A stretch of 64,000 nt of DNA from an archaeon. Lineage in GTDB: Archaea > Methanobacteriota_B > Thermococci > Methanofastidiosales > NM3. Shown here one piece after another: positions 43,035-62,485 of the stretch; the stretch's first letter is position 1; each line of letters begins with the position of its first letter. The translations under genes and the position numbers were made by a program. The notes beneath the pieces were generated by a model. The model was given only the letters and a program-made list of their open reading frames with translations. It ran no database searches and was not told the origin of the DNA. The stretch spans positions 1 through 64,000 of the forward strand of contig RXIG01000024.1 in the NCBI GenBank assembly GCA_004212155.1. The letters run 5' to 3'.

Positions 43035-43242
43035 CGCCCCTCCCCAAGGAAGATTCCGTGTGCGATTCGCTTGATGGGAAAATCTTTTCAAAACTATTTT
43101 AATTTTCTAATTTTTTTTCATTCTTTCATAACGATAAAATAAATTTTTGAACGATAAAAAAAAGAATAATATACTCCTAAAATCACGAAATAAAAAGATT
43201 TATATGTGTTATTTGCACATCACTTGTAAGGGGGGTGGTAGC

Positions 43243-49132: not shown

Positions 49133-50269
49133 ATGGACCTCATCCTCGATATTGCCATACTGCTGCTGGCAGCAAAGGTCGGCGGAGAACTGACCGAGTA
49201 TGCTGGATATCCTTCCATCATAGGCGAGCTCGCCGGCGGCATCATCGTTGGCACGTCGGTGCTCGGCCTCATAGGTGATACGAGCGCGCTTGAGCGCTTT
49301 GCTGACATCGGCATCCTGCTGCTCATGTTCCTGGCAGGCGCAGAGACGAATCTGCAGGAGCTCACGAAGTCGGCAGGCAGCTCAGTTGCCGTGGCGATAT
49401 CAGGAGTCGTGTTCCCGTTCATGCTCGGGTATCTTGCTGCCGTCGCGTTCGGATACGGGGCATCGGAGGGCATGTTCCTCGGCGCGGCCCTGACGGCGAC
49501 TTCGGTGAGCATCACTGTGCGCGCCCTGTTTGACATCGAAAAGCTCAATACAAGTAAGGGCATGACCATCCTTGGTGCAGCGATCATCGACGACGTCATC
49601 GGCGTCATCATCTTCACACTTGTAGTCGGACTGGCTGTGCAGGGTGAGCTCTCGGCGCTCCGCATCATCGAGGTGATAGGGGTAATCATTGCGTTCTTCC
49701 TGCTCTCGCACTTCGTGGTGCGCAGAGCCATGCGCCGCCTCTTCAAATATTCTCGCATGCTCAGGACCGAGGAGGGTACGGAAACGTTCGTCATCGTCTT
49801 CGTGCTCCTCTTCGCCCTCGTCGCAGAGGAGGCCTACATCGCAGGCATCACGGGCAGCTTCCTGGCAGGCATCATGCTAGCGCAGACGCATGACCGAAAC
49901 ACGATCATAGAAAAGACGAAGACGGTCGGCTATGCGTTTTTCATCCCTCTCTTCTTCGCCTTCGTGGGGAGCCGCGTCGACATCTGGCAAATTCTTGATG
50001 TCGGGGCGATAAGTGTGGTGGTGATCGTCTTTGCCATCGTAGGCAAGATGGGTGGCAGTGCCATCGCATGCAAGGCGATCGGCATGAAGATCAGAGACGG
50101 ACTCGAGATAGGCATCGGCATGACCCCCCGCATGGAAGTGGCCATCGTCATCGCGAACGCGGCACTGACAGAGGGCGTCTTCGCGGTGCCACTCTACACG
50201 TCAGTCGTGATGATGAGCTTTGCGACGACGCTCATCACGCCGCCGCTCCTCAAGAAGTTCTTTACGTGA
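49133..50269 (+). CDS. CPA2 family cation:proton antiporter
   Basis: PSIIGELAGG, ATSVSIT, GAAIIDD, FIPLFF, GM.PR.EV. Confidence 0.92.
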   Translation: MDLILDIAILLLAAKVGGELTEYAGYPSIIGELAGGIIVGTSVLGLIGDTSALERFADIGILLLMFLAGAETNLQELTKSAGSSVAVAISGVVFPFMLGYLAAVAFGYGASEGMFLGAALTATSVSITVRALFDIEKLNTSKGMTILGAAIIDDVIGVIIFTLVVGLAVQGELSALRIIEVIGVIIAFFLLSHFVVRRAMRRLFKYSRMLRTEEGTETFVIVFVLLFALVAEEAYIAGITGSFLAGIMLAQTHDRNTIIEKTKTVGYAFFIPLFFAFVGSRVDIWQILDVGAISVVVIVFAIVGKMGGSAIACKAIGMKIRDGLEIGIGMTPRMEVAIVIANAALTEGVFAVPLYTSVVMMSFATTLITPPLLKKFFT

Positions 50270-51962
50270 ACTCCTTCGGGGTGAGCGTGAGCGTGCGAAT
50301 GTTCTGCACAGGTGTGCCCACGGTGATATCGCATCCCGAGGCAAGAATGAGTCCCTTGCCGCCCATGTCCTCGATGCATCGGCGCGCCTCGGTGCGTACC
50401 TTGTCGGGGGACGACATGTAGAGCGTCTCGAGTGCCGATACGTTGCCGATGATAGCGAAGCGGTCGCCAAGCATCCGTCTCGCGAACGAGAGGTCGACAT
50501 GCGAGTCGATGCTCACGGCATCGGTGTTGAGGCCGCGGAACAGGTCAAGCCTGTCGCTGATGTTTCCGCAGATGTGAAGCGCCGTCTTGTCGTCGCTTCG
50601 GTTGAAGTGGCCAAAGACGTCGTTGATGAACGGAAGCGAGAACTCCTCGAAGACCTCGGCGGATATGAGGTCGCCCGATGCGACGGGGTCGCAGAAGAGA
50701 TATGCCTCGATGCCCGCCTCCTGCATGAGACGGGTGAATGAAAGCGTGAGCTCGGTGCAGTACTTGAGCAGTTTGAACGCAAACGGCCTGTTCACGAAGA
50801 GGTCCATGAGGAGATTCTGGGTGCCGCGAAGCTCGGCGGCCAGGGTAAACGGCATCGCGAGCGTAGCATACGTGAAGCGAGATCCATCATTGAGCTCGTT
50901 TATCGCAGTTGCCGCCTCGATGGCCGAACTGATGCGCTCATGCGACTGCAGCTCGGGCATCTCCAGCGAATCGATGTCCTCCGCGCGCTTGAGCAAAGGC
51001 TCGATGGTCACCGGATTACCCTTCGCCTCAATACGCACGTGCCCCCCTGCCGCTTCGATGGGGGCGAGCCAGTCCCATGCGCACTCGTAGGCGTCAAAGC
51101 CGCAGTTACGGACCTCCTTGTACTGGGTCTTTGCGGCTAGTTCTGGATGTGCGATCGACTGACCCACCGTCATGCCCGCGTGGTGCAGCGCCCAGTAGCC
51201 CTGAAAGGGGGGGGCGGTGGACACCATGTCAGGCACATCGCCACGAAGCGTCATCATGACGCGCTGGTGGGGCGAGACCTTGCGCTTCTTTCCCTTCAGT
51301 GTGGCAGCTCGCTGCTTGACGAGCTCGTGCGAGAGTTCCACGGTCTTGACCGCGTCGTCGGCGTAGCCGTCTGCGCCGATGGTGCGGGCGAACTCCTCGG
51401 TGACGGGGGCCCCGCCCACCATGACCTTGACGTCGTCGCGGCGCTCGAGAAAGAGGTTGACAACATCGATCATGTTCTCCATGCTCGTCGTCATGAGCGC
51501 CGAGACGCCGACGATGTCCGCATCGACCTCGATGGCCTTTTCAAGGAACGTCTCGGCAGGCGTGTCGACGCCGAGATCATAGACCTTGAACCCACCCAGC
51601 TCAAGCAGCATCTTGACCATGTTCTTTCCGATATCGTGGAAATCGCCCGTGGTCACGCCGAGCACGACGGTGCCCTCGTTGTGGGAGTTGTTGTTCTGCG
51701 AAAGATAAGAATGAAGGATATCAATGGCCGCGTTTGCGGCGCGAGAAGAGAGCAGGACCTCGGGGATGAAGATCTTTCGCTGTTCGAACAGCTCGCCGAG
51801 CACCTGCATTGTGTCATGACAGGCAAACGAGAGGGCCTTGCGCACGTCGACGTCATGCTCGATGACCTGTCGGGCGGCATCTACCGCACCGTCAACATCG
51901 CCGTGGATGATGCTCCTGCACAGAGCACCCAGGATCTCGTCGTCCCGTTTCATCATGGTCAC
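50262..51962 (-). CDS. Corrinoid protein - MtaA/UroD-like methyltransferase fusion
   Basis: N-terminal B12 domain (DFHDIGKN, SALMTTS, VGGAP) fused to a methyltransferase with HICG...GC Zn motif. Confidence 0.9.
   Translation of the reverse strand: MTMMKRDDEILGALCRSIIHGDVDGAVDAARQVIEHDVDVRKALSFACHDTMQVLGELFEQRKIFIPEVLLSSRAANAAIDILHSYLSQNNNSHNEGTVVLGVTTGDFHDIGKNMVKMLLELGGFKVYDLGVDTPAETFLEKAIEVDADIVGVSALMTTSMENMIDVVNLFLERRDDVKVMVGGAPVTEEFARTIGADGYADDAVKTVELSHELVKQRAATLKGKKRKVSPHQRVMMTLRGDVPDMVSTAPPFQGYWALHHAGMTVGQSIAHPELAAKTQYKEVRNCGFDAYECAWDWLAPIEAAGGHVRIEAKGNPVTIEPLLKRAEDIDSLEMPELQSHERISSAIEAATAINELNDGSRFTYATLAMPFTLAAELRGTQNLLMDLFVNRPFAFKLLKYCTELTLSFTRLMQEAGIEAYLFCDPVASGDLISAEVFEEFSLPFINDVFGHFNRSDDKTALHICGNISDRLDLFRGLNTDAVSIDSHVDLSFARRMLGDRFAIIGNVSALETLYMSSPDKVRTEARRCIEDMGGKGLILASGCDITVGTPVQNIRTLTLTPKEFT
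51184..51212. repeat. 29-bp exact repeat shared with 53948-53976 (paralogous methyltransferase domains)
   Basis: TGCAGCGCCCAGTAGCCCTGAAAGGGGGG at both positions, encoding the PFQGYWAL segment. Confidence 0.85.
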
Positions 51963-52010
51963 AGCTTCTTGTTTATACCAACTCCTTAAAAAGGTAATTC
52001 AGGATAGAGC

Positions 52011-53024
52011 TCAAAGTCCGTGCGCATACGACGTGTAGGCGCGTATGTTGTCAAGCGGCGTCTTGGGCGATATGCCGCAGCCCGGGGCGAGGATGTCCGC
52101 GCCCTTCTCGATGCATGAGCGCGCCTCGTCGACCACGCGCCGAGCGTCGCCGAAGAGGAGCGTGTCGATGGGATTGATGTTTCCCACGAGCGCAGCGGAG
52201 CGGACCTTCTCGCGCGCAACAGCCATGTCAACGAGGTGGTCAATCGATATGCCCTTGGCACCGATGCGCTGCATATCATCAAGTATCTCAGTGGTGTCCC
52301 CGCAGATGTGGAGCACCACCGGCACGTCGAGCGAATCGATGACGGCATGCAGCTGTGGTCCTGCAAGCGAGGCGAACATCTCGGGTCCGATGAGCTCGGT
52401 TGTCGCCGAAGGATCGATGAGCGTGATGACATCTGCCCCGTTGGCCACGAGGTGGCGGGCGTATGCGACGCACACGTCGGTGGTGAACGCGAGCACGCGT
52501 TCGAGGAAGTCGTAATCATCGAACGAGTCGATGAGGAGCGTCTCGATGCCGCGTATCTGCCCGGCCAGTGTGAACGGCCCGACCACTCCGCCGATGACGG
52601 GAAGCCCATGCCGGTCCGCGCGTTCCGAGAGCAAGCCAAGCGCCGTTGCCACCACGGGCATGCGCCCTGTCTTGGAGGGATCGGGAACCGAGAGCGAGTC
52701 GAGCGCATCCTTGTCAGCGAGCACGGGGCGTTCCACCGAAGGCTGCGACGTGTCTGCGCCGCTGTGGATCGAGCATCCCAGCGCCTCCGCCTCCACGGTG
52801 AGGCAAAACGGAACGCGCACGCTCTCGATGTCGGCACACTTCCATGCTGCGTAGGCGAGGTCCGCCATCTTCTTCGCATCGTAGTGCGCATCGGGCCAGC
52901 GAGCACCGCTTCGCTCCATCATCTCGAGCGTCGCCGTCTGGAGCGGACATGCGCACGATGGGCGGTCTGCCGGTTCGCCGTCGAGTATGGCAAGCAGCCG
53001 TTCGCGGGAGGAGAGCTCGGGCAT
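52011..53024 (-). CDS. MtaA/CmuA-family methylcobamide:thiol (CoM) methyltransferase
   Basis: WPDAH, RVPFCLTVEAEALG, GPFTLA, DPSA, LHICG, APGCG. Confidence 0.9.
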   Translation of the reverse strand: MPELSSRERLLAILDGEPADRPSCACPLQTATLEMMERSGARWPDAHYDAKKMADLAYAAWKCADIESVRVPFCLTVEAEALGCSIHSGADTSQPSVERPVLADKDALDSLSVPDPSKTGRMPVVATALGLLSERADRHGLPVIGGVVGPFTLAGQIRGIETLLIDSFDDYDFLERVLAFTTDVCVAYARHLVANGADVITLIDPSATTELIGPEMFASLAGPQLHAVIDSLDVPVVLHICGDTTEILDDMQRIGAKGISIDHLVDMAVAREKVRSAALVGNINPIDTLLFGDARRVVDEARSCIEKGADILAPGCGISPKTPLDNIRAYTSYAHGL

Positions 53025-53028
53025 GGTA

Positions 53029-54057
53029 TCACTTCCGCGCGACGACCGTCTTGAGCGCCTCGACGTTATCCATCGGACTTCCCGGTGCGATATCGCATCC
53101 AGCACCCAGCACGAACGCCTTGCCGTCGGTCTTTTGTATGCACGCCTGCGCCTCGCGCACGACCTGTTCGGCCGTCCCGTTAAAGAGCGTCTCTGCGGGA
53201 TTCACGTTGCCAAGCAGCGTGGGCGAGTCTCCAAGCGTCTCCTTCGCATAGGCGAGGTCGACGAGGAAGTCGAGCGAGAAGACGTCAATGTCGAGCTCGC
53301 CGATGGTATCGAGCCTGTCGGACGTGTTGCCGCAGATGTGAAGGAGCACGTAGGCGTCGGCATCGCGAATGGCCTTGATGGGTGCCTTGAGATAGTGTTT
53401 CGAGAACGTCTCGAAGTCCTCTTTTGATATAAGGTCCGCCGAAGCGGTGGGATCGCAAAGAATGACGCCGTCAACACCCCAGCTCGTGAGATATTCGCTG
53501 TAGCGCACGACGACGTCCTCTGCAAACGAGAGCATGTCGTGGACGAAGTCAGGCTCGTCGTACATGTCAAGCATGAGATTCTCGACGCCGCGAAGCTCGC
53601 CTACGAGCGTGAACGGCGATACGAGCGTCGTGTAAAGGAACTTGTCGCTTCCCAGCTTGTTCCTGATGATGCTTGTCGTGTGCATTGCGCTCTGAAGGCG
53701 GTAGTCCTTCTCAGGATCGGGGACCTCGAGTGAGTCGAGAACTGAGGGTGAGGTAACGACATGAGTTGCCGTGCTTGGGTTCCCGACATCCGGCATGTCC
53801 ACCGTGCAGCCCACAGCCTCCACAGGGGCGAGCCAGTCCCACATCGTCTCGAAGCCGTCAAAGGCGCAGCGCTCCACCGCTTTGAGCTGGGCCGAAGCGG
53901 CAAGCTGCGGCTTGTCGATCGACGTCCTGACGGGGACGCCGGCCTGCTGCAGCGCCCAGTAGCCCTGAAAGGGGGGCCCGATGGGCACCCTGTCGACGGG
54001 CTCGCCGTTGATGGCAGCCACGAATCTGTCGCGAGATGAGTGCGACACCATTGTCAT
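53029..54057 (-). CDS. UroD/MtaA-like methyltransferase
   Basis: PPFQGYWAL, WDWLAPVEA, CDPTAS, LHICGN, GAGCD. Confidence 0.87.
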   Translation of the reverse strand: MTMVSHSSRDRFVAAINGEPVDRVPIGPPFQGYWALQQAGVPVRTSIDKPQLAASAQLKAVERCAFDGFETMWDWLAPVEAVGCTVDMPDVGNPSTATHVVTSPSVLDSLEVPDPEKDYRLQSAMHTTSIIRNKLGSDKFLYTTLVSPFTLVGELRGVENLMLDMYDEPDFVHDMLSFAEDVVVRYSEYLTSWGVDGVILCDPTASADLISKEDFETFSKHYLKAPIKAIRDADAYVLLHICGNTSDRLDTIGELDIDVFSLDFLVDLAYAKETLGDSPTLLGNVNPAETLFNGTAEQVVREAQACIQKTDGKAFVLGAGCDIAPGSPMDNVEALKTVVARK

Positions 54058-54689
54058 GCCCCCACCAACTTACCGATGAGCTTGACCGCCTTTGCCGCGT
54101 CGTCGGCGTAACCGTCTGCACCGATCGTGTCAGCATAGCTCTGTGAGACGGCGCCACCACCAATGATGATCTTGATGTTGCCATCGACCTCCCTTACGGC
54201 GGCGATGACGTCGGGCATGCCCACCATGCTTGTCGTCATGAGCGATGACATGCCCACGACCTGTGGAGATGAGTCCTTGACCGAGGCGACAAAGGCATCC
54301 TTTGTGACGCTCTTGCCAAGGTCGACGACGGTGTAGCCCGCTGCCTCGCACAGCAGCTTGACGAGGTTCTTCCCGATGTCGTGGATGTCGCCCTCGACGA
54401 CGCCCAGCACCACGGTGCCCGATGACTTCGAATCGACCTCGAGGTGCGGCTTGAGGATTTCCACTGCCATGTTCATCGCCCGCGCTGAGCGAAGGATCTG
54501 TGGCACGAACACCTTGCGCTGCTCGTAGAGGTCGCTTACGATCTGCATGCCCTTGTTCAGGCCCTGCTGTATGCACTCGTACGCATCGAGTTCCATGGAT
54601 ATCGCATCATGTGCCGTGGCGGTGGAAAGCTTCTCATCACCGCTAACGACCGCATCGGTCAGTTTTTTGTAAACATCTTCCTTTTTCAT
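54054..54689 (-). CDS. Methyltransferase cognate corrinoid protein
   Basis: GDIHDIGKN, SSLMTTS, IGGG, GADGYADDA. Confidence 0.93.
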   Translation of the reverse strand: MKKEDVYKKLTDAVVSGDEKLSTATAHDAISMELDAYECIQQGLNKGMQIVSDLYEQRKVFVPQILRSARAMNMAVEILKPHLEVDSKSSGTVVLGVVEGDIHDIGKNLVKLLCEAAGYTVVDLGKSVTKDAFVASVKDSSPQVVGMSSLMTTSMVGMPDVIAAVREVDGNIKIIIGGGAVSQSYADTIGADGYADDAAKAVKLIGKLVGA

Positions 54690-56581
54690 TTTATCACTTC
54701 CTTCATCGTTGCAAGGTCGAAATGGTCCTCGTAGAGGGAGGGTTCGATCCCGACGGATGCGAGCATCTCCCTGGTAGGATATCCGTCCCTCGTCCATCCC
54801 CTCATCCTGTAGCATTCCTGCATCATGTCGTCAAATGGCGGCGCCTTACCCATGCGGGCGCCATCGGGTGCGGGCGTGAGGAGCTTCTTTGGAAGCACGT
54901 CGTATGCCGGCCCCTTCCCGTCGCGTATGTTGACGAGACGCTGGAAGTTATAGATGCGCTCGCCGCAGCGCGAGAGGTCTTCAAACGACCATCCCCAGCC
55001 GGTCATGGCATTGAGCGCGTCCAGATAGCGAGATATCGACGCCTCGCCCTCGACGAACATGAACGCGCAGAGGACCGCCGATCCCATGATCGCGCCGAAG
55101 TTCTGATGGATGACGGCAAGTCGCGTCTTGTCCCCGACCTCGAAGAAGCGCGGTTTTTTTGTCACGCCGTACTCGGGGAGGAGGAATCCGCCGATCTCGG
55201 TCTCCTCGGGGCATCCTCGGTAATGGCATGCGCCGCGGGTCCCTGTCGCATAGTTTACCGAGAGGCTGTAGCACAGGCGCGGGTCGTGTCCGGGCACGTC
55301 GAGTCCCCGTACATGGACCGCATGCCCTTCCTTACCGAGGGTGGCCCCGAGCGTGGCGGCACCCTCGGCCATGATGCTCCCTATGCCTTCCCGTTTGCCT
55401 ATGAGGTCGATGAGGTGGAGGACAATGGCAGGATCTCCCCAATCGATTCGCAGGTCCCCGATGACGTGAGGTGGAAACCACCCCTTCTCGTAGGCTTCCA
55501 TGGCAAGGGCTATGGCCGAGCCCGCAGAGATGGTGTCCATCCCGTAGCGATTGCACAGATCATTAGCCTTCGCTACGGCGCGCACCTCGCGGACGAGGCA
55601 GTTCGCCCCTAGCATTGCCAGAGTCTCGTACTCGGGTCCTGGTCCATCGACCCCATAGGACGGGTGCTCAAAGGAGACATGACGGTGACAGGCAAGCGGG
55701 CAGCTGAGACAGGCCTTGGGCTTGACGTTGAGCGCCTCGTTGTAATGGGGCGTCTCCATCTCCTTGCCCTCCTCCGTCCAGCTGCTGCCGTCCCAGTTCT
55801 TCTTTGGAGTGTTGTCAAGGGCATTATAGGTGGCAAAGCCACCTGGTGTGCCCCAGGCGCGAAGCTCCTTGCCCCGGTCGCTTCGCACCATCGTCCTGGT
55901 GATATCCTTCCTGATGTCGTCAAGTGCCCCTCCATCGAAATACGAAGGTGTCGCGCTCCCCAAGAGCGCGATGCCCTTGAACTTCTTGGAGCCCAACACA
56001 GCGCCGATGCCCGACCGGCCAGCGTAGCTGTGCTTGTCGACGACGACGCAGGCGAAGCGGACGAGCCGCTCCCCTGCCGGCCCTATGGCAGCGACACTCG
56101 CCTTCTTGTTCGTGTCGCTTTTCATGGCGTCAATGGTATCGAACGTCTCGAGCCCCCATAAGGCCGAGGCGTCCCTGAGCTCGACCGCGCCGTCCTCTAT
56201 CCATAGATAGACGGGTGATGGCGAGCGTCCCTCGACGACGATGGCGTCGAGTCCGCATCCGCGAAGGGACGGCCCGAAGCTGGCACCCGCCGCCGAATCG
56301 CCAAAGGTGTGGGTCATAGGAGACTTGGAGACTAGCGACCATTTGGCGGATCCGGGGATGCGCGTGCCCTGGAACGGTCCTGTGGCGAAGACGACCTTGT
56401 TTGCAGGTTGGAATGGGTCGACGTGGGAGGGAACTTCATCGAGAAGGATCTTTGCGCCCATTCCCGCTCCGCCGAGAAACACCTTGTAGAACCGTTCGTC
56501 GGTGTGCTCTATATGGGTCCGTCCCTTCGTGAGGTCGACCCTCAACACCTTGTTATGGTAACCAGACGACAACAGGATCAC
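54686..56581 (-). CDS. aor: Aldehyde:ferredoxin oxidoreductase (tungsten family)
   Basis: KSP.T, IGPAGE, AGRSG.GAV.GSK, CLSCPLAC, GPEYET, DTIS, HDPR, RGACH. Confidence 0.9.
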   Translation of the reverse strand: MILLSSGYHNKVLRVDLTKGRTHIEHTDERFYKVFLGGAGMGAKILLDEVPSHVDPFQPANKVVFATGPFQGTRIPGSAKWSLVSKSPMTHTFGDSAAGASFGPSLRGCGLDAIVVEGRSPSPVYLWIEDGAVELRDASALWGLETFDTIDAMKSDTNKKASVAAIGPAGERLVRFACVVVDKHSYAGRSGIGAVLGSKKFKGIALLGSATPSYFDGGALDDIRKDITRTMVRSDRGKELRAWGTPGGFATYNALDNTPKKNWDGSSWTEEGKEMETPHYNEALNVKPKACLSCPLACHRHVSFEHPSYGVDGPGPEYETLAMLGANCLVREVRAVAKANDLCNRYGMDTISAGSAIALAMEAYEKGWFPPHVIGDLRIDWGDPAIVLHLIDLIGKREGIGSIMAEGAATLGATLGKEGHAVHVRGLDVPGHDPRLCYSLSVNYATGTRGACHYRGCPEETEIGGFLLPEYGVTKKPRFFEVGDKTRLAVIHQNFGAIMGSAVLCAFMFVEGEASISRYLDALNAMTGWGWSFEDLSRCGERIYNFQRLVNIRDGKGPAYDVLPKKLLTPAPDGARMGKAPPFDDMMQECYRMRGWTRDGYPTREMLASVGIEPSLYEDHFDLATMKEVIK

Positions 56582-56600
56582 CTGTAAAAAAAAGAAGGGC

Positions 56601-57878
56601 CTAGAGGGCCCTGTCCAACAGTTGTACCAGGTCTAGCGTCGGTATGTTCTTGTTCGCCGCGCGCGCACCGTCGTTGAGGTTGGTGTGGCAGAAGGGGCAG
56701 ATTGACACGATCGCCTCGGCGTTCTTCTCCTCTGCCTCGTCCACGCGTCGCTTTGACGTGTTCACCGCGAAGTCCGGATAGTCGGTCTTCACGCCGCCAC
56801 CGGCGCCGCAGCACAGCGAATCGCGGCGTATGCGTTCGAACTCGACGAAGTCGATGCCCGGTATCGCGCTCAGGAGCTCGCGGGGCTGGTCGTAGAGCGA
56901 ATGACTCTGGTCCTCATCGCCCGTTCCTTCCTTGTAGCGGTGCAGATGGCGTCCCGTGTGGCACGGGTCGTGATAGGTAACGCGCATGTTGACCTCCTTT
57001 TCCGGCCTCCACTCGCCCGCCTTGTACTTCTCGTGCAGGAAGTCGACGAGGTGCATGATGCGTATGCCGTCGATGTAGTCCTCGTATCCTTCCACATCTG
57101 GATAGTCCTTGTTGAAGCAGCGGAAGCAGCCTGCGCACGCAGTGACGATCGTGTTCACGCCGTGGTTTTCATGCATGTCCTTGAACGTCTCAAGCGATTT
57201 CTTGGCAACGCGCTGGAACTCGTTTTCAACACCCATCCTGCGCACGGTCGAACCGCAGCAGACCTCCTTGTCGTAGAGATAGCCGAAGTCGATGCCGAGC
57301 TTGTTGAGGACATTGACGGTGGAGACGGCGATGCAGCGGTTGTTGGAGTTGTAGGCAGGCGTGCAGCCGGCATAGTAGAGGACCTCTGCGTCCTCCTTGT
57401 TGAGGTTTTTGACCGGCGTGTCCTTGAACTCCTTGGTCCACCTCGTTCGCATCTTGCGCGAGCCGGTGTAGGGGTTGTCGTTGTTTCGCATCGACTTGAT
57501 GAGCACCTCTCCGGACTCGGGCCCAAGGCCCTTGTCCTGCAGCTCGAATCGGATGTGCTGCAGGATCTCGGCGCCATAGGCGCGTATGGGCTTCCAGGCG
57601 TCCTCGTCGTTGATGTAGCACTGCTCGGCGCAGGCACCGCATAATGTACAGTAGGAGAACATCTCTGCCACGTCGTCGTCCCACTCGAGCTCGCCGTTGC
57701 GCAGGGCCCGATAGACCTGCATCCTCCCCTGGAGCGTATAGTCAAGAAACGACCTGTCAAGGTACGATGGGCACACGATCTCCCTGTTGCCCTCGTGCTG
57801 TGTCCTGCAGGTGCCGCATCCTATGCAGCGCTCGGGCAGATTGTTCTCCTTTAGGATCTTTTCTATGTCGAGTTTCAT
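56601..57878 (-). CDS. HdrD/GlcF-like Fe-S oxidoreductase with CCG domains
   Basis: CIGCGTC, CTLCGACAEQC, YAGC, CCG, CAGC, YHDPCH, CCGAGGG, CPFC. Confidence 0.9.
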   Translation of the reverse strand: MKLDIEKILKENNLPERCIGCGTCRTQHEGNREIVCPSYLDRSFLDYTLQGRMQVYRALRNGELEWDDDVAEMFSYCTLCGACAEQCYINDEDAWKPIRAYGAEILQHIRFELQDKGLGPESGEVLIKSMRNNDNPYTGSRKMRTRWTKEFKDTPVKNLNKEDAEVLYYAGCTPAYNSNNRCIAVSTVNVLNKLGIDFGYLYDKEVCCGSTVRRMGVENEFQRVAKKSLETFKDMHENHGVNTIVTACAGCFRCFNKDYPDVEGYEDYIDGIRIMHLVDFLHEKYKAGEWRPEKEVNMRVTYHDPCHTGRHLHRYKEGTGDEDQSHSLYDQPRELLSAIPGIDFVEFERIRRDSLCCGAGGGVKTDYPDFAVNTSKRRVDEAEEKNAEAIVSICPFCHTNLNDGARAANKNIPTLDLVQLLDRAL

Positions 57879-59336
57879 TTAGATGCCCCCTATCTGGCCC
57901 CGATTCATGATGCGGTACGGATCGATGAGGTCCTTGATCTGTTTGATGAACTCCACCGTGTTCGGGTCCGCATGCGACATGTTCACCCTGCTGTTTGAGT
58001 ATGAGGGCTTGTAGACGACCGCCCCGAGCTCGACCTCCTTTTCGGCGATGGCCTTGAGCAGCGCGCGGTCGCGCTCCTTCTCCTCCTCCGATGCGTCCTT
58101 GTGCTGGAAGACGTTGAAGCGAAGGATCGTCTCGTGGCCGTTGTCCATCACGCGATTGTACTGCATGATCGGATGCTCTGGCTCGACGTAACCAAGCTTC
58201 TCGTAGACCTTCTCGACAGCACGGTAGATCTCGGCCTGCTTGAACGGGGGAGCGTAGCAGCCGGCCCACTCACCCGTGCCGCCCCTGTTGCCGTCCATGT
58301 CGTTTGAGAGCTGCATGGGCAGGTCGTGGAAGTACTGCATCTGATTGCCTGGAGGAAGCTTCGGGAGGCCCTCCTCCTCAGGCTCTATCTCGATGCCCTT
58401 GTCCTCCTTGCATATCTTGTAGAGCTCCTCGATCTTGCCATCCATGATCTTCTCGTTGGCCGCCTGGAGCACCACCCAGCTCTCGAGCTCTGGCTCTCCC
58501 TTTTCGCGGCTGAACGGGAGCTTGATGCCCGCCTCGCAGCGCCCCCACGCCCAGTTGTTGGACGCGATGTCGACGGCGATCTGCTGCTTTGCGATGTTCA
58601 TCTGATTGAGGTAGCCGTGCTCGACCGTGTCTGCGTTGACGTAGAACGCCTGTTGCTCGGCAGGTTGCTTGTAGATCTTAACGGATGCCTTGGTGACGAT
58701 GCCGGTCGTTCCGGCCCATCCTATGAAGAGGCCAGCCAGGTCGATGATGGGCGCCCTCGTGCCCCAATATGGCGAGATCATGTGGTTTCCCGTCTTGATC
58801 AGCTCGCCGTTTGGCAGCACGACCTCCATGCCGGTGATGTAGAAGCTGCCGTCGCCGTGGGCAAGGCTGACATCCATCATGCCGCAAAGCAGATACCCTG
58901 TCACGACGCCGCTTGACGGCGGAGAATAGGTATATGCACCGATGTAGCCCGGTGCGCGCTTCATCATCTCGCGCTTGAAGTCGGCCCACGTGAGGCCTCC
59001 ATCGACAACGGCATAAAGACCATCGGTGTTGATCTCCTCGACCTTGTTCATGCGTCGCAAGTCGAGGATGATGCCTCCATGGTGGGCATTGCACATGCCC
59101 CCAGTCGTAAGATTGCACACCCATGGAATGACGTTTACCTTGTTCTTCCATGCGATGCGCATGATGGCCTGGACCTCCTCGGTGGAGCCGGGCATGAGGA
59201 CGGCGTCGGGATGCCCGTTCGGTTCGACGCTCGTCCAGTCATTTGAATAAGCGTATCGGGTGGTCTTCTTTTCCGATATATACTTCTGGCCGACCACGCC
59301 TTCTAGCTCTTTGAATACATTTCTATCTAAAGTCAT
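57879..59336 (-). CDS. GlcD-like FAD-binding oxidoreductase (VAO/PCMH family)
   Basis: PDAVLMP.STEEV, IILDLRRMNK, EVVLPNGE, GLFIG..GT.GIVT, DP..IMN.G. Confidence 0.88.
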   Translation of the reverse strand: MTLDRNVFKELEGVVGQKYISEKKTTRYAYSNDWTSVEPNGHPDAVLMPGSTEEVQAIMRIAWKNKVNVIPWVCNLTTGGMCNAHHGGIILDLRRMNKVEEINTDGLYAVVDGGLTWADFKREMMKRAPGYIGAYTYSPPSSGVVTGYLLCGMMDVSLAHGDGSFYITGMEVVLPNGELIKTGNHMISPYWGTRAPIIDLAGLFIGWAGTTGIVTKASVKIYKQPAEQQAFYVNADTVEHGYLNQMNIAKQQIAVDIASNNWAWGRCEAGIKLPFSREKGEPELESWVVLQAANEKIMDGKIEELYKICKEDKGIEIEPEEEGLPKLPPGNQMQYFHDLPMQLSNDMDGNRGGTGEWAGCYAPPFKQAEIYRAVEKVYEKLGYVEPEHPIMQYNRVMDNGHETILRFNVFQHKDASEEEKERDRALLKAIAEKEVELGAVVYKPSYSNSRVNMSHADPNTVEFIKQIKDLIDPYRIMNRGQIGGI

Positions 59337-59379
59337 GATAGTTCCACCTCCCACATGGGGAAAAAGAAAAAAAGAGGGG

Positions 59380-60729
59380 TTAGTCCTCGACCACCCCTGT
59401 AGGTACGTCAATAACGTACTGGTCCGCGTACCTGCTGCGTTCCCAGCGAAGGAAGAGCCAAACGACAAATCCGATCGCGAAGTAGGCAAAGAACATGTAC
59501 CACAGCGTACTGTCGAAGTACTTGAACGTGTAGTACGTCATCACTAGGCCGCATCCCACTGCGAGCACACCCGTTGCGCTTCCGCCTGGCACCTTCCATG
59601 GACGGCGCCACTTGGGGAATACCCTGCGCATCTGAAGGAACGAAAGACTTGAGATGGTATATGTTATACCAACGCCGATCGCCATCAGGGTAAAGAGATA
59701 CTCCAGCCACTGCGTGCCTGAAATGGCAATGAAAAACAGTGTGACGGCAAGTATCGACCAGTTGGCAGTCGATGGTACGTGCTGCTTGTTGAGGTTCCCG
59801 AACTGACGCGGCAGGATGCGGGAACGTCCCATGCTGTAGAGCAGCCTGGAGCCTGCAAGCCAGAATCCGTTGAGGCAGGTCGCAAGCGCGCAGAAGTTGG
59901 CCAATGCTATCGCATACTGGGCCCATGTACCGTAAAGCGCGCCCGCGATTGTGGCGCTTACCATCGGCGTTTCGTTGACGATGGTGTCGAACGGAAGCAT
60001 CGCTGCGTTCACGATGCAAAGACCGCCGTAGAACGCGATACAGAAGATGATGGAGCCAACGATAAGCCTCCAGTGCTTCTCGGTCGGGTATTTAGACTCC
60101 TCGGCGAACTGCGGGATGATCTCGAATCCGAAGAACATCGTCACCATGAGGGCCGTAGCAGTAAAGAATCCGTCCCTTCCTGTTTGGAAGAACGGGCTCC
60201 AGTTAGCCGTATCGAACGTCGGGTGGGACACGAAGAGGACCACGATTGTCACAGCAATAACAACGAGTACCAAGAACATCAAGAACTGTGCTGTAGCGCT
60301 GATGATGAGCTCACGAGAGTTCATTATGGCAAAGCCCACGGCAAGAATAGCTGCGATAATCATCATGGAGGTCAACGGCATGCCGGGCCACCACAGATAT
60401 TCAACGATCCACATGAGTGCCATGAGCTGGAACGAAAGCACTGTCGTGTACGAGAGCAAAAGTGCCCATGAGGTCCAGAACGAAGCCTCTTTGCCAAACG
60501 CGTTTTGTATAAAGACAAAAGGCCCACCGACGAATGGGAGCATGGCGGTCATTTCACCATACACCAATCCTATGGGGATACACATCAATCCGACGACCAA
60601 GAACGAGAGAGCTATAGACGCGCCGGTAAGTGAGATCCACCATTGCATCATCACTAACCAGGGTCCTATGACGGCAGCTGTCGCCATGGCGAACAGATAC
60701 CAGCTCCCAAGTGACTTTTGAAGTCGCAT
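59380..60729 (-). CDS. APC family amino acid/amine permease
   Basis: ~12 TM helices, YGEM...P..GG, FFGFE...QFAEE, SRLLYSMGR. Confidence 0.92.
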   Translation of the reverse strand: MRLQKSLGSWYLFAMATAAVIGPWLVMMQWWISLTGASIALSFLVVGLMCIPIGLVYGEMTAMLPFVGGPFVFIQNAFGKEASFWTSWALLLSYTTVLSFQLMALMWIVEYLWWPGMPLTSMMIIAAILAVGFAIMNSRELIISATAQFLMFLVLVVIAVTIVVLFVSHPTFDTANWSPFFQTGRDGFFTATALMVTMFFGFEIIPQFAEESKYPTEKHWRLIVGSIIFCIAFYGGLCIVNAAMLPFDTIVNETPMVSATIAGALYGTWAQYAIALANFCALATCLNGFWLAGSRLLYSMGRSRILPRQFGNLNKQHVPSTANWSILAVTLFFIAISGTQWLEYLFTLMAIGVGITYTISSLSFLQMRRVFPKWRRPWKVPGGSATGVLAVGCGLVMTYYTFKYFDSTLWYMFFAYFAIGFVVWLFLRWERSRYADQYVIDVPTGVVED

Positions 60730-61032
60730 TGTGTCTCCGCCGCTTCCAGTGTCACTGATAGAATCACCTAGAAAAGGTAAAAAAAAGGCGCTTTATATTG
60801 TTTTTCGAACCTATTGCAGAAGGTTGCAACATTTAATCAATATATGAAAATAATTGTGTTTTTTGTTGCAAAAATAAAATATAATAATTCTATTGAAACT
60901 TTCAAGGACATGAATTTTACGTTATTTTTTCCTCCGGTAACACATATGCATATATAAGCTTATCGGTTTGAAAAGAATCACTTGGCGGAAGTGGAACGTA
61001 TGCGAGCCGCGTCCTGTGTTGGGTCGAGACGA

Positions 61033-61046
61033 GAAAAGATTTAAAT
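61033..61046 (+). promoter_or_regulatory. BRE/TATA promoter of SRP RNA
   Basis: GAAAAGATTTAAAT just upstream of the RNA. Confidence 0.6.
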
Positions 61047-61060
61047 GCATGCCTGCGAGA

Positions 61061-61383
61061 GGTGATGCGACTAGGTCGGGGAGGTAGGCGTGCCCTGTTA
61101 CCAGAAACCGTCTAGATGCTGGGACCGAAGCCCTCGGGGCGTCGACTGAACGTGGCAAAGGTGCTGCCTACGCCGATGAAGTCCTGTCCTGCTTGATTGG
61201 TGGGGCGCGAGGCCCTTTTGGAGGAAAGGGTTAACGCGCCTTGTCTCCCGAACCCCGCCAGGTCCGGAAGGAAGCAGCGGTAGGGAGGACATTCAATGCT
61301 TGCGGGATTGCAGGATGGAGAACGGGGCAGTCCTCTCTTTGCCACCGGATGTCGGCCACCCGCGGGCGCGTCGTGACCATCAC
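61061..61383 (+). ncRNA. ffs: Archaeal SRP (7S) RNA
   Basis: Helix-8 signature GCCAGGTCCGGAAGGAAGCAGCGG, helix 6 with GGAG loop (CCCTTTT-GGAG-GAAAGGG), complementary ends (GTGATG/CATCAC), ~320 nt; ends approximate. Confidence 0.92.
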
Positions 61384-61417
61384 AAACGTTTTTTAACGTG
61401 CCTGACCATTCGAGACC

Positions 61418-62344: not shown

Positions 62345-62485
62345 CCCGGTATACGTGATGGCGGGGCGAGAATGGCATGGTTGAGATAAAAAGTTGCCCC
62401 ACACATCGAAAAATACATATAATGTGGCACGCATTCTGACTAAAATCGTCTTCGTGCCCGAGCCGCGAGGACGGGACGTGATCAC

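What the first reader, a model, noticed from the sequence alone, without database searches (positions are those of the whole stretch)
50262..60729. Candidate undescribed uptake-oxidation-demethylation operon: APC permease, GlcD/GlcF, AOR, corrinoid proteins and three Zn-type methyltransferase domains
Seen: eight co-oriented genes with overlaps or gaps under 50 bp, downstream of an AT-rich promoter region (60730-60960). Order: amino acid/amine permease, FAD oxidoreductase, CCG/HdrD-like Fe-S protein, AOR, corrinoid protein, methyltransferase, MtaA-like methyltransferase, corrinoid-methyltransferase fusion. All three methyltransferase domains carry HxC...C Zn ligands, and no MtaB/MttB/MtgB-type MT1 is present. 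Established: systems built only from MT2-type enzymes plus a corrinoid protein (Methanosarcina MtsAB, MtpCAP) handle methyl-thioethers, and Methanofastidiosa are predicted methylthiol reducers. Inference: an S-methylated amino acid or derivative (methionine, S-methylcysteine or their hydroxy/alcohol derivatives) is imported, oxidised via an aldehyde to an acid such as methylmercaptopropionate, and demethylated. The HdrD-like subunit could couple the oxidation to disulfide reduction. I know of no described operon combining these modules.
Basis: partly seen in the sequence, partly recalled or inferred. Interest (0 to 1): 0.85.

Follow-up and report, generated by a model that had tools for sequence, protein, structure and literature searches.

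The report
Methyl-transfer operon with built-in oxidation module
An uncultured methane-producing archaeon carries one operon that joins a transporter, three cobalamin-type methyltransferase domains and an alcohol/aldehyde-type oxidation unit, which points to a methane substrate not yet identified, probably a sulfur-methylated amino-acid-like compound.

Summary
Eight co-oriented genes lie on the minus strand (50262-60729), separated by -4 to about 50 bp. They encode an APC permease, an FAD dehydrogenase, an HdrD/TfrB-like CCG iron-sulfur protein, an AOR, a corrinoid protein, a divergent MtaA/CmuA-type methyltransferase (mtX), a methylcobalamin:CoM methyltransferase (mtA) and a corrinoid-methyltransferase fusion. 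All three methyltransferase domains keep the His-Cys-Cys zinc site.

The host has mcrA, MtaB and two RamA genes. MtrA was not found.

- The whole block is colinear in a congener at 55-80% identity.
- FAD-CCG-mtX recurs in 4 of 4 informative Methanomethylicia loci.
- The permease-mtX pair sits side by side in 18 of 26 mtX-bearing Methanomassiliicoccales-order genomes, none of which has the oxidation genes nearby. The imported compound is therefore probably the methyl donor itself, not a downstream acid.

"GlcD/GlcF" is a loose label. The flavoprotein scores nearer p-cresol methylhydroxylase by profile, and its fold match is ambiguous. It is predicted to bind the CCG protein (0.90, best control 0.00), and a natural fusion of the two exists.

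Most likely this is an S-methyl-specific MT1/corrinoid/MT2 system linked to an organic-donor:heterodisulfide and ferredoxin oxidation module. The substrate is unknown. I found no description of the block in print. I rate it a new variant of a known kind.

The parts
60730..61063 (.). Intergenic promoter region shared with a divergent SRP RNA gene. AT-rich, with a TATA-like caatataaag at 60791-60800 and two TTGCAAC words at about 60823-60871 (minus-strand reading).
   Evidence: GC 0.41; sequence read; SRP RNA at 61064-61377. Promoter function is inferred, not shown.
59380..60729 (-). APC-superfamily permease (449 aa), the likely importer of the methyl donor.
   Evidence: AA_permease_2 123 bits. 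Below every NCBIfam cut-off; best are TIGR00909 at 145 bits and BcaP at 130. Nearest solved structures are GkApcT and CAT-type amino-acid transporters. Orthologues (36-58% identity) lie next to mtX in 18 genomes of another order.
57879..59336 (-). FAD-dependent dehydrogenase of the VAO/PCMH-GlcD superfamily (485 aa). A distinct family, not GlcD proper.
   Evidence: FAD_binding_4 76 bits only. GlcD model 76 bits against a cut-off of 568. Profile against PDB: PCMH 217 bits, LDHD 166. AF2 model pLDDT 89.8. Foldseek gives LDHD TMq 0.80 and VAO-type 0.82-0.84. H401 is kept in 44/44, K443 in 43/44 and Y442 in 35/44 sequences.
56601..57878 (-). HdrD/TfrB-like iron-sulfur protein (425 aa): an N-terminal 2x[4Fe-4S] domain plus two CCG domains. 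Likely electron acceptor of the flavoprotein and thiol/disulfide site.
   Evidence: CCG 118 bits (2 stretches) and Fer4_8. Best NCBIfam is TfrB at 173 bits (cut-off 385); GlcF 50 bits (cut-off 333). PDB hits are HdrB and a 1042-aa Fe-S reductase. Predicted complex with the flavoprotein scores 0.90 against a best control of 0.00. A natural FAD+CCG fusion exists, P0250.
54686..56581 (-). Tungsten/molybdenum-pterin aldehyde:ferredoxin oxidoreductase (631 aa as listed).
   Evidence: AFOR_N 250 bits and AFOR_C 373 bits. Nearest solved structures are canonical AORs, 9mqx at 397 bits and 1aor at 383, ahead of FOR, WOR5 and BamB.
54054..54689 (-). Corrinoid (cobalamin-binding) methyl-carrier protein (211 aa). 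Its stop overlaps the mtX start (ATGA).
   Evidence: B12-binding and B12-binding_2. TIGR02370 190 bits (cut-off 215). DxHxxG motif seen.
53029..54057 (-). mtX: divergent MtaA/CmuA-like, zinc-type methyltransferase (342 aa). Proposed substrate:corrinoid methyltransferase (MT1).
   Evidence: URO-D 238 bits. TIGR01463 196 bits, below the 235 cut-off; PRK06252 187, below 244. Best PDB hit is MtaA 4ay7, E 3.8e-34. It sits in a clade separate from MtaA-like sequences, SH-aLRT 95. His-Cys-Cys kept.
52011..53024 (-). mtA: methylcobalamin:coenzyme M methyltransferase (MT2, 337 aa).
   Evidence: NF004889 371 bits (cut-off 244) and TIGR01463 304 bits (cut-off 235); MtaA equivalog 335 bits, below 400. It falls in the MtaA-like clade with the genome's MtaB-linked MtaA. 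RNA-library contigs identical to the window cover 51975-52627.
50262..51956 (-). Fusion protein (564 aa): N-terminal corrinoid-binding domain plus a C-terminal mtX-clade methyltransferase domain (39.5% identical to mtX).
   Evidence: B12-binding_2, B12-binding and URO-D at residues 234-560. Paralogy shown. Full-length relatives number only 7 clusters at 54-94% identity; the named ones carry 'Methanofastidiosia' or 'Methanomicrobia archaeon' labels.

Best explanation
The operon encodes a substrate-specific, corrinoid-dependent route from an imported methylated compound to methyl-coenzyme M, joined to an oxidation module that supplies electrons.

Proposed steps:
1. The APC permease imports an amino-acid- or amine-like compound that carries an S-methyl group (possibly Se-methyl).
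2. mtX moves that methyl group onto the separate corrinoid protein. The corrinoid-MT fusion does the same for a second methyl group or a related donor.
3. mtA passes the methyl group from the cobalt to coenzyme M. Mcr, encoded elsewhere, releases methane and forms the CoM-S-S-CoB heterodisulfide.
4. The flavoprotein and the HdrD/TfrB-like CCG protein form a complex. It oxidises an alcohol or hydroxy compound, possibly the demethylated carbon skeleton, and hands the electrons to a disulfide, most plausibly the heterodisulfide.
5. The AOR oxidises the resulting aldehyde to the acid and reduces ferredoxin.

The module would let methyl reduction run on an organic donor rather than only on H2.

Shown here: the domain content, the conservation, the permease-mtX linkage, the clade separation of mtX from mtA, and the predicted FAD-CCG binding.

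Inferred: the MT1 role of mtX, the sulfur chemistry, the acceptor of the CCG protein, and any link between the oxidised compound and the methyl donor.
For: - Domains and scores.
- Tight spacing, including the overlapping cor/mtX start.
- mtA passes the CoM-methyltransferase cut-off, while mtX and the fusion do not. They form a separate clade: 33 rows with SH-aLRT 95, against 17 rows with SH-aLRT 99 for the MtaA-like clade.
- The fusion shows that an mtX-clade domain works with a corrinoid domain.
- His-Cys-Cys is kept in 121-123 of 126 aligned sequences. This site is described as the S/Se signature of UroD-type methyltransferases (PMC10418091 Results).
- Precedent: MtpA is an MT2-family protein that acts as an MMPA-specific MT1 with the corrinoid protein MtpC (bioRxiv 548461 passages).
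- Permease-mtX linkage in one sample of 151 genomes: mtX in 26 and the permease orthologue in 20. Both occur in 18, and they are adjacent in all 18.
- FAD-CCG-mtX adjacency holds in 4 of 4 informative loci of another phylum (L005, L006, L060, L111), with an AOR nearby in 3 of them.
- The whole block is colinear in L003.
- FAD-CCG complex: score 0.90 with best control 0.00. That mark was reached by 58 of 80 solved complexes and 2 of 110 mismatched pairs. The runs share at least 90% of contacts and the partner pLDDT is at least 90.
- A natural 882-aa FAD+Fer4+CCG fusion exists.
- The best family hit of the CCG protein is TfrB, the thiol-oxidising subunit of thiol:fumarate reductase.
- An 'HdrD-GlcD' heterodisulfide reductase has been proposed in print for Methanomethylicia (passages of PMC6783470, PMC6421429 and bioRxiv 2022.08.18.504445).
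- The host has mcrA and two RamA genes; MtrA was not found.
- Contigs from an RNA library cover parts of mtA, the AOR and the permease. One contig from a 92%-identical relative bridges the CCG/AOR junction.
Against: - No enzyme here has been assayed, and no characterised MtsA, MtpA or CmuA sequence could be placed in my tree. The MT1 assignment and the sulfur chemistry therefore rest on motif and analogy.
- The Methanomassiliicoccales permease-mtX loci have no corrinoid gene beside them.
- The oxidation genes are missing from those 18 loci, and FAD-CCG pairs occur three times in this genome. The oxidation module may therefore be a general energy unit, not tied to the methyl donor.
- The flavoprotein scores nearer the phenol-oxidising PCMH/VAO enzymes than D-lactate dehydrogenase by profile. 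This fits an aromatic substrate better than an amino-acid skeleton.
- The RNA evidence comes from assembled contigs of a library that may contain DNA, and it does not cover every gene.
- The complex prediction may partly reflect likeness to solved fused forms.
Confidence: 0.45

Rival explanations
1. Two independent units merely sit side by side. One is a methyltransferase system for an unknown methyl donor. The other is a general 'HdrD-GlcD'-type hydroxy-acid (for example lactate):heterodisulfide oxidoreductase with an AOR for aldehyde clean-up. The oxidised compound would have nothing to do with the methyl donor.
For: - This genome has three FAD+CCG gene pairs.
- The C20 pair has its own ferredoxin and an AFOR_N-only protein and no methyltransferase.
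- The 18 Methanomassiliicoccales permease-mtX loci lack the FAD, CCG and AOR genes.
- A general HdrD-GlcD role has been proposed in print.
Against: - The particular FAD-CCG orthologues (45-47% and 36-39% identity) sit directly next to mtX in 4 of 4 informative Methanomethylicia loci and in this genus, that is, in two phyla. Other FAD paralogues of the same genomes (28-33%) lie elsewhere.
- The gaps inside the block are 0-54 bp.
Confidence: 0.2
2. An S-methylated amino acid or alcohol is imported, oxidised through an aldehyde to an acid such as methylmercaptopropionate, and only then demethylated by MtsA/MtpA-like enzymes.
For: - The gene order runs permease, dehydrogenase, AOR, then methyltransferases.
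- The His-Cys-Cys sites are present.
- MtpA shows that MMPA can be an MT1 substrate of this protein family.
Against: - Permease and mtX travel together without any oxidation gene in 18 genomes. The transported compound is therefore probably mtX's own substrate.
- An acid like MMPA is not a typical substrate of APC amino-acid-type permeases, and the known MMPA system uses an MFS transporter (PMC7374477 passage).
- Two MT1-type domains would be unexplained for a single-methyl product.
Confidence: 0.13
3. A methoxylated or otherwise para-substituted aromatic compound is the substrate. Demethylation frees a phenol, the PCMH/VAO-like flavoprotein oxidises the benzylic carbon to the aldehyde, and the AOR makes the aromatic acid. 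This would be a CoM-directed counterpart of methoxydotrophic methanogenesis.
For: - The flavoprotein family profile scores best against p-cresol methylhydroxylase (217 bits, full length) and VAO-type enzymes, ahead of D-lactate dehydrogenase at 166 bits.
- A Tyr-Lys pair aligns with PCMH Tyr473-Arg474.
- Foldseek TM-scores are as good for VAO-type enzymes as for LDHD.
- DNA matches come from oil-field, crude-oil and subsurface metagenomes.
Against: - The zinc site is His-Cys-Cys, whereas O-demethylases of the superfamily replace the cysteines.
- The known archaeal O-demethylase MtoB is an MtvB-type protein of 47-48 kDa and works with an MtrH-like MT2, not MtaA (PMC8630106 passages).
- The transporter is an amino-acid-type APC permease.
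- The loop carrying the first phenolate-binding tyrosine of PCMH is deleted in the alignment.
Confidence: 0.12
4. The methyltransferases serve sulfur or selenium acquisition rather than energy metabolism. They would strip methyl groups from Se-methyl or S-methyl amino acids, as proposed for mlp/sdm clusters, and coenzyme M would only be the methyl sink.
For: Related UroD-type clusters are linked to methyl-selenide use, and ClMlp2 shows activity with selenide (PMC10418091 Results). His-Cys-Cys cannot tell S from Se.
Against: - A dedicated CoM methyltransferase, two carrier domains and an oxidation module in one operon of an Mcr-bearing, methyl-reducing archaeon fit catabolism better.
- mtX is in a clade other than those I could link to bacteria.
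- No selenium gene lies in the block.
Confidence: 0.07

Closest known systems
MtpCAP of Methanosarcina acetivorans (methylmercaptopropionate system)
   Same: It combines a corrinoid protein, an MT2-family (UroD-type, zinc) methyltransferase that acts as a substrate-specific MT1, and a transporter in one operon. A separate MT2 is needed (bioRxiv 548461 passages; PMC7374477 passage).
   Different: The transporter here is an APC permease, not MFS. The MT2 is encoded in the operon. There is a second, fused MT1-carrier, and an FAD/CCG/AOR oxidation module is attached. Sequence orthology to MtpA could not be tested.
MtsA/MtsB (M. barkeri) and the fused MtsD/F/H (M. acetivorans) methylsulfide systems
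   Same: Only MT2-family enzymes and corrinoid domains are involved, some of them fused, and the substrates are methyl thioethers.
   Different: The window has a clear division into an MtaA-like MT2 and a separate mtX clade. The fusion is corrinoid-N/MT-C. The genome has two other fusions of the opposite order, with RamA, on C15; these fall in the MtaA-like clade.
'HdrD-GlcD' pair proposed for Methanomethylicia (Verstraetearchaeota), Bathyarchaeota and Archaeoglobus
   Same: An FAD_binding_4 dehydrogenase is encoded next to an HdrD-like CCG protein, and the pair is proposed to reduce CoM-S-S-CoB.
   Different: The pair here is one of three in the genome and the most divergent of them. It sits inside a methyltransferase operon with an AOR. 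Its flavoprotein is not GlcD by the family cut-offs and scores nearer PCMH by profile. Whether the printed 'glcD-hdrD' is the mtX-adjacent copy I could not see, because supplements are closed.
Thiol:fumarate reductase TfrAB
   Same: A flavoprotein partners with an Fe-S/CCG subunit that handles the CoM and CoB thiols. TfrB is the best-scoring family for the CCG protein (173 bits).
   Different: The score is below the cut-off of 385. The partner flavoprotein belongs to another superfamily. The direction is presumed opposite: donor oxidation with disulfide reduction.
Type 1 mlp gene clusters (Kountz and Balskus preprint)
   Same: Several UroD-superfamily His-Cys-Cys methyltransferases occur with a corrinoid protein and are proposed to act on methyl-S/Se compounds.
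   Different: Those clusters are mostly bacterial, carry a Ram/RACE activase and lack a CoM methyltransferase context. No permease-FAD-CCG-AOR module is described in the Results I read.
Mto system of Methermicoccus shengliensis (methoxydotrophy)
   Same: A methanogen uses a demethylase, a corrinoid protein and transporters for a complex methylated organic substrate.
   Different: MtoB is MtvB-type, the MT2 is MtrH-like and delivers to H4MPT, and the transporters are MFS/efflux types. None of this is found in the block.

Membership tests
Methylcobalamin:CoM methyltransferase (NF004889/PRK06252; MT2) | Score over the curated cut-off of 244 bits | tested here: met
   Met for mtA only, at 370.8 bits. 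mtX scores 187.2 and the fusion 170.9, both below the cut-off.
MtaA/CmuA family (TIGR01463) | Score over the cut-off of 235.4 bits | tested here: not met
   mtX scores 195.9 and the fusion 169.6, both below the cut-off. mtA scores 304.3 and passes. mtX and the fusion are therefore relatives of the family, not members by the curated mark.
MtaA/CmuA-type zinc methyltransferases | His-x-Cys...Cys zinc ligands | tested here: met
   HICG and GC motifs are present in all three domains. They are kept in 121-123 of 126 aligned relatives.
MtaA equivalog (NF040654) / MtbA equivalog (NF041608) | Score over 400 / 600 bits | tested here: not met
   mtA scores 334.9 and 286. mtX scores 165 and 136. The fusion scores 141 and 130.
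True uroporphyrinogen decarboxylase HemE (TIGR01464) | Score over 302.95 bits | tested here: not met
   Scores are 87, 59.4 and 62.2 bits.
MtsA / MtpA (methylthiol or MMPA methyltransferases) | Orthology to the characterised proteins; activity with DMS, MeSH or MMPA | not testable with these tools
   No characterised sequence could be obtained, and no specific model appeared in NCBIfam. The MFS transporter of mtpCAP is not matched; the transporter here is APC.
Glycolate oxidase GlcD / GlcF | Scores over 567.9 (TIGR00387) and 333 (NF008434) | tested here: not met
   The flavoprotein scores 76.1 bits and the CCG protein 50.1 bits.
VAO/PCMH 4-phenol oxidoreductases | Phenolate-binding Tyr, Tyr and Arg (residue names recalled; positions read from the PCMH alignment) | tested here: not met
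   Y442-K443 align with PCMH Tyr473-Arg474, but the loop with the first tyrosine is a gap in the profile alignment.
HdrD-type heterodisulfide reductase subunit | N-terminal 2x[4Fe-4S] domain plus two CCG domains with CCG motifs; heterodisulfide activity | tested here: inconclusive
   The architecture is met: Fer4_8 plus 2 CCG, with cysteines C207/C208 and C356/C357 conserved. No HdrD-specific model was available. HdrB models score 37-62 bits, below their cut-offs. Activity was not tested.
Aldehyde:ferredoxin oxidoreductase (AOR family) | AFOR_N plus AFOR_C domains; closest to AOR proper | tested here: met
   250 and 373 bits. 9mqx and 1aor are the best solved relatives.
Methyltransferase-cognate corrinoid proteins (TIGR02370) | B12-binding_2 plus B12-binding domains with DxHxxG; score over 215.3 bits | tested here: inconclusive
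   The domains and the motif are present. Scores are 190.2 (cor) and 164.5 (fusion), below the cut-off.

The most novel reading that the evidence does not exclude
The permease-mtX pair marks an unrecognised class of methanogenic substrate: an S-methylated amino acid or amine such as methionine, S-methylcysteine or S-methylmethionine. Methyl-reducing methanogens of at least three phyla, including about one in eight sampled Methanomassiliicoccales species, would use it. In this lineage and in Methanomethylicia the added FAD-HdrD-like-AOR module would let the same compound, or its demethylated skeleton, also supply the electrons. That would make methyl-reducing methanogenesis independent of H2.
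Probability: 0.2. Interest if true: 0.85.

Novelty: new variant of a known kind. Interest (0 to 1): 0.64.

Why it matters
Methyl-reducing methanogens are thought to depend on a short list of methyl donors (methanol, methylamines, methyl sulfides) plus H2. A conserved transporter-methyltransferase pair of unknown substrate, found in gut-associated and subsurface lineages, would extend that list.

An operon-encoded organic-donor:heterodisulfide route would change how electron supply is modelled for these organisms in oil reservoirs, hot springs and guts.

The block also offers a concrete, clonable test case for the long-proposed but untested 'HdrD-GlcD' heterodisulfide reductase.

Tried and rejected
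- **Cluster names.** The names and accessions of the mtX relatives could not be expanded.
- **Phylogeny against characterised enzymes.** No reference sequences for MtsA, MtpA, MtbA or CmuA could be brought in. The tree holds only session sequences, uses a quick LG+G4 search with SH-aLRT support only, and has a long-branch warning for three rows.
- **Flavoprotein fold.** The fold search did not separate D-lactate-dehydrogenase-like from VAO/PCMH-like. I did not test the metal-binding residues of 2-hydroxy-acid dehydrogenases residue by residue.
- **ESM Atlas.** It gave only generic URO-D clusters.
- **Single-sequence PDB search of the flavoprotein.** Only the FAD domain matched; the profile search was needed.
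- **FMN reductase.** The FMN_red gene inside the L003 block is only 34% identical to the window's nearby FMN_red at 47354-47935. I do not count that gene as part of the operon.
- **Read laying.** The RNA library left 13 of 30 bins without cover, including the fusion's 3' part and most of the flavoprotein gene. No RNA contig identical to the window bridges a gene junction, so co-transcription is not shown.
- **Habitat.** Small-share runs were not used for habitat claims.
- **Genomic island.** The idea that the block is a foreign island was not supported by composition. GC is 0.52-0.65 in the block and 0.576 for contig C1.
- **Literature.** Searches that found no description of the block are (0 papers). 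Supplements are closed. Supplementary gene tables and figures of PMC6783470 and PMC6421429 (hdrD/glcD neighbourhoods) may show parts of this arrangement.

Full report
**What is there.** On the minus strand between 50262 and 60729 lie eight genes in one direction. Pfam and NCBIfam identify them as follows:
- an APC-superfamily permease (AA_permease_2, 123 bits);
- an FAD_binding_4 flavoprotein (76 bits);
- a protein with a 4Fe-4S dicluster domain and two CCG domains (118 bits);
- an aldehyde:ferredoxin oxidoreductase (AFOR_N 250, AFOR_C 373 bits);
- a corrinoid protein;
- two URO-D-family proteins;
- a protein with an N-terminal corrinoid-binding part and a C-terminal URO-D domain.

Reading the starts shortens four of the listed ORFs. 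The resulting gaps are 43, 0, 19, 0, -4, 4 and about 54 bp. The corrinoid gene's stop overlaps the start of the next methyltransferase (ATGA). All three URO-D domains carry His-x-Cys and a distal Cys, and both corrinoid domains carry DxHxxG. Upstream is an AT-rich 334-bp spacer (GC 0.41) that ends at a divergent archaeal SRP RNA gene (61064-61377, 208 bits).

**The organism.** The window is the first 64 kb of an 89-kb contig in a 1.49-Mb, 28-contig genome rated 90% complete.
- The genome has mcrA, MtaB with MtaA, MtaC and a RamA on contig C9, and a second RamA on C15.
- No MttB, MtrA or ComA was found. With a 90%-complete genome, these are 'not found', not 'absent'.
- The nearest proteins in public data carry the labels 'Candidatus Methanofastidiosia archaeon' or 'Methanomicrobia archaeon'.
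- This fits a methyl-reducing methanogen.
- The genome holds nine URO-D-family genes. Besides the three in the window and the C9 MtaA, these are a corrinoid-URO-D-MT2-like trio on C10, two fusions of the opposite domain order (methyltransferase first) next to RamA on C15, and one on C17.

**The methyltransferase part.**
- mtA (52011-53024) passes the curated cut-offs for methylcobalamin:CoM methyltransferase (371 bits against 244) and for the MtaA/CmuA family (304 against 235).
- mtX (53029-54057) and the fusion's domain score 187/196 and 171/170 bits, below both cut-offs. All three are far below the HemE cut-off.
- The best solved relative of mtX is MtaA (4ay7, E 3.8e-34).
- mtX and the fusion's domain are 39.5% identical to each other and 28-35% identical to mtA.
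- In a 65-row tree (quick search, LG+G4, SH-aLRT only) they fall in one clade of 33 rows (support 95), together with sequences from Methanomassiliicoccales-order genomes, Methanomethylicia loci and a Methanosarcinaceae-labelled protein. mtA, the MtaB-linked MtaA and the C15 fusions fall in a separate clade of 17 rows (support 99).
- The zinc ligands are kept in 121-123 of 126 aligned sequences.
- A preprint whose Results I read states that His-Cys-Cys marks the S- or Se-methyltransferases of this superfamily, while O-methyltransferases replace one or both cysteines (PMC10418091).
- Passages of another preprint show that MtpA, a member of the 'MT2' family, is in fact an MMPA-specific MT1 that works with the corrinoid protein MtpC and needs a separate MT2 (bioRxiv 548461).

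By analogy, I read the block as follows. mtX plus the corrinoid protein act as MT1 and carrier. The fusion is a second MT1 and carrier in one chain. mtA is the shared MT2. This assignment is inference.

Full-length relatives of the fusion are rare. Only 7 of the 155 proteins with E <= 1e-20 cover it fully (54-94% identity); those with names bear Methanofastidiosia or 'Methanomicrobia archaeon' labels. The search is word-based and its candidates were capped.

**The permease-mtX pair is the conserved core.**
- A scan of species-representative genomes with mtX gave 88 confirmed relatives, of which 80 loci were kept.
- Within the window's own order, orthologues above 60% identity occur only in the same genus: G001 at 99% and G002 at 64%. 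The other matching genomes among the 41 searched reach only 29-32%.
- The next-nearest relatives are in other phyla. mtX-clade matches (E <= 1e-60) occur in 26 of 151 sampled genomes of the order of a Methanomassiliicoccus-labelled locus and in 5 of 62 genomes of the class of a Methanomethylicales-labelled locus.
- I fetched the flanks of all of these and laid the block's proteins on them (L004). In 18 of the 26 Methanomassiliicoccales-order genomes, an orthologue of the window's permease (36-58% identity) lies on the same strand within 1.1 kb of mtX. In five of them two mtX paralogues lie within about 0.6 kb of a permease gene: they flank it in four (L086, L087, L088, L092), and L097 holds two tandem permease-mtX pairs.
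- None of these loci shows the FAD, CCG or AOR genes.
- Searching the same 151 genomes with the permease found it in 20 (E <= 1e-40). Eighteen of these are the genomes with the adjacent pair. Two have the permease match without an mtX match, and eight have mtX without the permease. One of those eight is cut at a contig end.
- Related genomes are not independent, so I give counts, not a test.

The pairing indicates that the transported compound is mtX's substrate. The permease is nearest to amino-acid transporters of the ApcT/CAT type and is below every specific NCBIfam cut-off. In three Methanomassiliicoccus-type loci a 227-aa gene follows mtX. In the two that I scanned it is an HTH_10 protein (the L004 copy was not scanned). 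From memory, this is the family of the Msr regulators of Methanosarcina methyltransferase operons.

**The oxidation part.**
- The flavoprotein is not GlcD by score (76 bits against a cut-off of 568), and the CCG protein is not GlcF (50 against 333). The CCG protein's best family is TfrB, the thiol-handling subunit of thiol:fumarate reductase (173 bits, cut-off 385).
- The flavoprotein's relatives are 77-80% identical under Methanofastidiosia labels. Unlabelled proteins of about 495 aa are 45-47% identical, like the Methanomethylicia copies. Asgard-labelled proteins are 35-39% identical, and proteins loosely called glycolate oxidase are about 30% identical.
- A 44-sequence profile of this family scores best, and over its full length, against p-cresol methylhydroxylase (217 bits) and bacterial vanillyl-alcohol oxidases (212). 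Mouse D-lactate dehydrogenase scores 166.
- A confident model (pLDDT 89.8) matches both groups about equally (TMq 0.80 against 0.82-0.84).
- A Tyr-Lys pair aligns with PCMH's Tyr473-Arg474: Y442 is kept in 35/44 sequences and K443 in 43/44. The loop with PCMH's first phenolate tyrosine is missing.

The substrate class of the flavoprotein is therefore open.

- The CCG protein keeps both CCG motifs.
- A library-wide search found an 882-aa natural fusion of FAD_binding_4, FAD-oxidase_C, a 4Fe-4S domain and two CCG domains (P0250).
- The complex predictor gives 0.90 for the window's pair against 0.00 for the best of three controls. That mark was reached by 58 of 80 solved complexes and 2 of 110 mismatched pairs. 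My own alignments were used, so those counts hold only roughly. The runs share at least 90% of contacts and the partner pLDDT is at least 90. The CCG protein's ferredoxin-like N-terminus (residues 13-94) lies against the FAD domain. The pass may partly reflect likeness to solved fused forms.
- The AOR is nearest to canonical broad-range AORs.
- The genome has three FAD+CCG gene pairs and four AORs. The pair on C20 (its CCG protein 44% identical to the window's) is followed by a ferredoxin and an AFOR_N-only protein, without methyltransferases. So the flavoprotein-CCG-AOR trio is a recurring unit in its own right.

**Linkage of the two parts.**
- In L003 (a congener) all eight genes are colinear at 55-80% identity, with one extra FMN-reductase-type gene between the AOR and the corrinoid gene.
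- In the four informative Methanomethylicia loci (L005, L006, L060, L111), orthologues of the flavoprotein (45-47%) and the CCG protein (36-39%) lie directly upstream of mtX. In three of them an AOR and the permease lie within about 6 kb. L005 is cut by the contig end 1.1 kb upstream, and the fifth locus, L112, is only 3 kb.
- Other FAD paralogues of the same genomes (28-33%) lie elsewhere.
- The same orthologues being adjacent in two phyla argues for a functional link. The Methanomassiliicoccales loci show that the link is optional.

**Expression and occurrence.**
- Near-identical DNA occurs in oil-field, crude-oil, lake-water and subsurface metagenomes. One lake-water run covers the whole stretch colinearly at about 94-96%.
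- One metatranscriptome library holds contigs identical to the window over 51975-52627 (mtA).
- It also holds contigs with 3-11 differences in the AOR and permease genes.
- A 749-nt contig from a 92%-identical relative spans the CCG/AOR junction.

Contigs cannot give strand or level, the library may hold DNA, and 13 of 30 bins had no RNA cover. This is a weak hint of expression, not proof of co-transcription.

**Most likely mechanism.** A methylated amino-acid-like compound is imported. Its methyl group or groups, most likely on sulfur, pass through mtX and the corrinoid protein, and through the fusion, to mtA and coenzyme M. The flavoprotein-CCG complex oxidises an alcohol or hydroxy compound and reduces a disulfide, most plausibly CoM-S-S-CoB, as proposed in print for 'HdrD-GlcD' pairs (passages read). 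The AOR takes the aldehyde on to the acid with ferredoxin reduction. I put 0.45 on this whole picture. By part:
- about 0.85 that the right half is a CoM-directed corrinoid methyl-transfer system;
- about 0.55 that the donor is S-methyl;
- about 0.35 that the left half feeds the heterodisulfide.

**Comparison and novelty.** The closest known system is mtpCAP. Further relatives in kind are MtsAB and MtsDFH, the mlp clusters, TfrAB and the proposed HdrD-GlcD pair. None of the texts I searched or read describes the permease-mtX pair or the eight-gene block (searches; supplements could not be seen). I file it as a new variant of a known kind. The parts are familiar; the clade of mtX, its fixed pairing with an APC permease, the corrinoid-first fusion and the attachment of an FAD-CCG-AOR module are not.

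Noticed in passing
window 61064-61377 (+): Archaeal SRP RNA gene (Rfam RF01857, 208 bits), divergent from the operon. The listed ORF 61300-62358 overlaps it and has no Pfam match, so its start is probably spurious.
   Followed up: partly
G000 contig C20:105074-109435 (locus L082): A paralogous cluster without any methyltransferase: FAD_binding_4 gene, CCG gene (44% identical to the window's), a 111-aa ferredoxin, and a 410-aa protein with only the AOR N-terminal domain.
   Followed up: partly
G000 contig C15:200422-206250 (locus L085): Two tandem fusions of the opposite order (methyltransferase N-terminal, corrinoid C-terminal; 583-596 aa), followed by a RamA-type activase. They fall in the MtaA-like clade. 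These may be the methylsulfide-type enzymes of this lineage.
   Followed up: partly
G000 contig C10:62486-66489 (locus L083): A second corrinoid (46% identical to the window's), a very divergent URO-D and an MT2-like gene in a trio, followed by an aldo/keto reductase and a SAM-type methyltransferase.
   Followed up: partly
window 43147-46472 (+): A NiFe-hydrogenase large-subunit gene is followed by a 529-aa protein that fuses a hydrogenase small-subunit domain (Oxidored_q6), 4Fe-4S motifs and FrhB N- and C-terminal domains. This is an unusual fusion.
   Followed up: no
window about 60823-60871: The word TTGCAAC occurs twice, about 40 bp apart, in the AT-rich spacer upstream of the permease. 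It could be a regulator site.
   Followed up: no
L003 8663-9241: In the congener, an FMN_red (iron-sulfur-flavoprotein-like) gene sits inside the block between the AOR and the corrinoid gene. The window's nearest FMN_red gene (47354-47935, minus strand) is only 34% identical.
   Followed up: yes
L107 11021-11704, L105 9318-10001, L004 7144-7827: A 227-aa gene lies convergent just downstream of permease-mtX in Methanomassiliicoccus-type loci. The L107 and L105 copies have a C-terminal HTH_10 domain; the L004 copy was not scanned. It may be a regulator of the pair.
   Followed up: partly
protein P0250 (882 aa, from the representative library): A natural single-chain fusion of an FAD_binding_4/FAD-oxidase_C dehydrogenase with a 4Fe-4S domain and two CCG domains. 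Other CCG relatives are fused to LUD, cytochrome c, NarI-like or 2Fe-2S modules.
   Followed up: partly
L017-L064 (Nitrospirota-labelled loci): Distant mtX relatives (about 30% identity) lie 2-3 kb from an MtaA-like gene and a corrinoid gene, with a CCG protein about 5 kb further on. This arrangement is conserved across many Nitrospirota MAGs.
   Followed up: no
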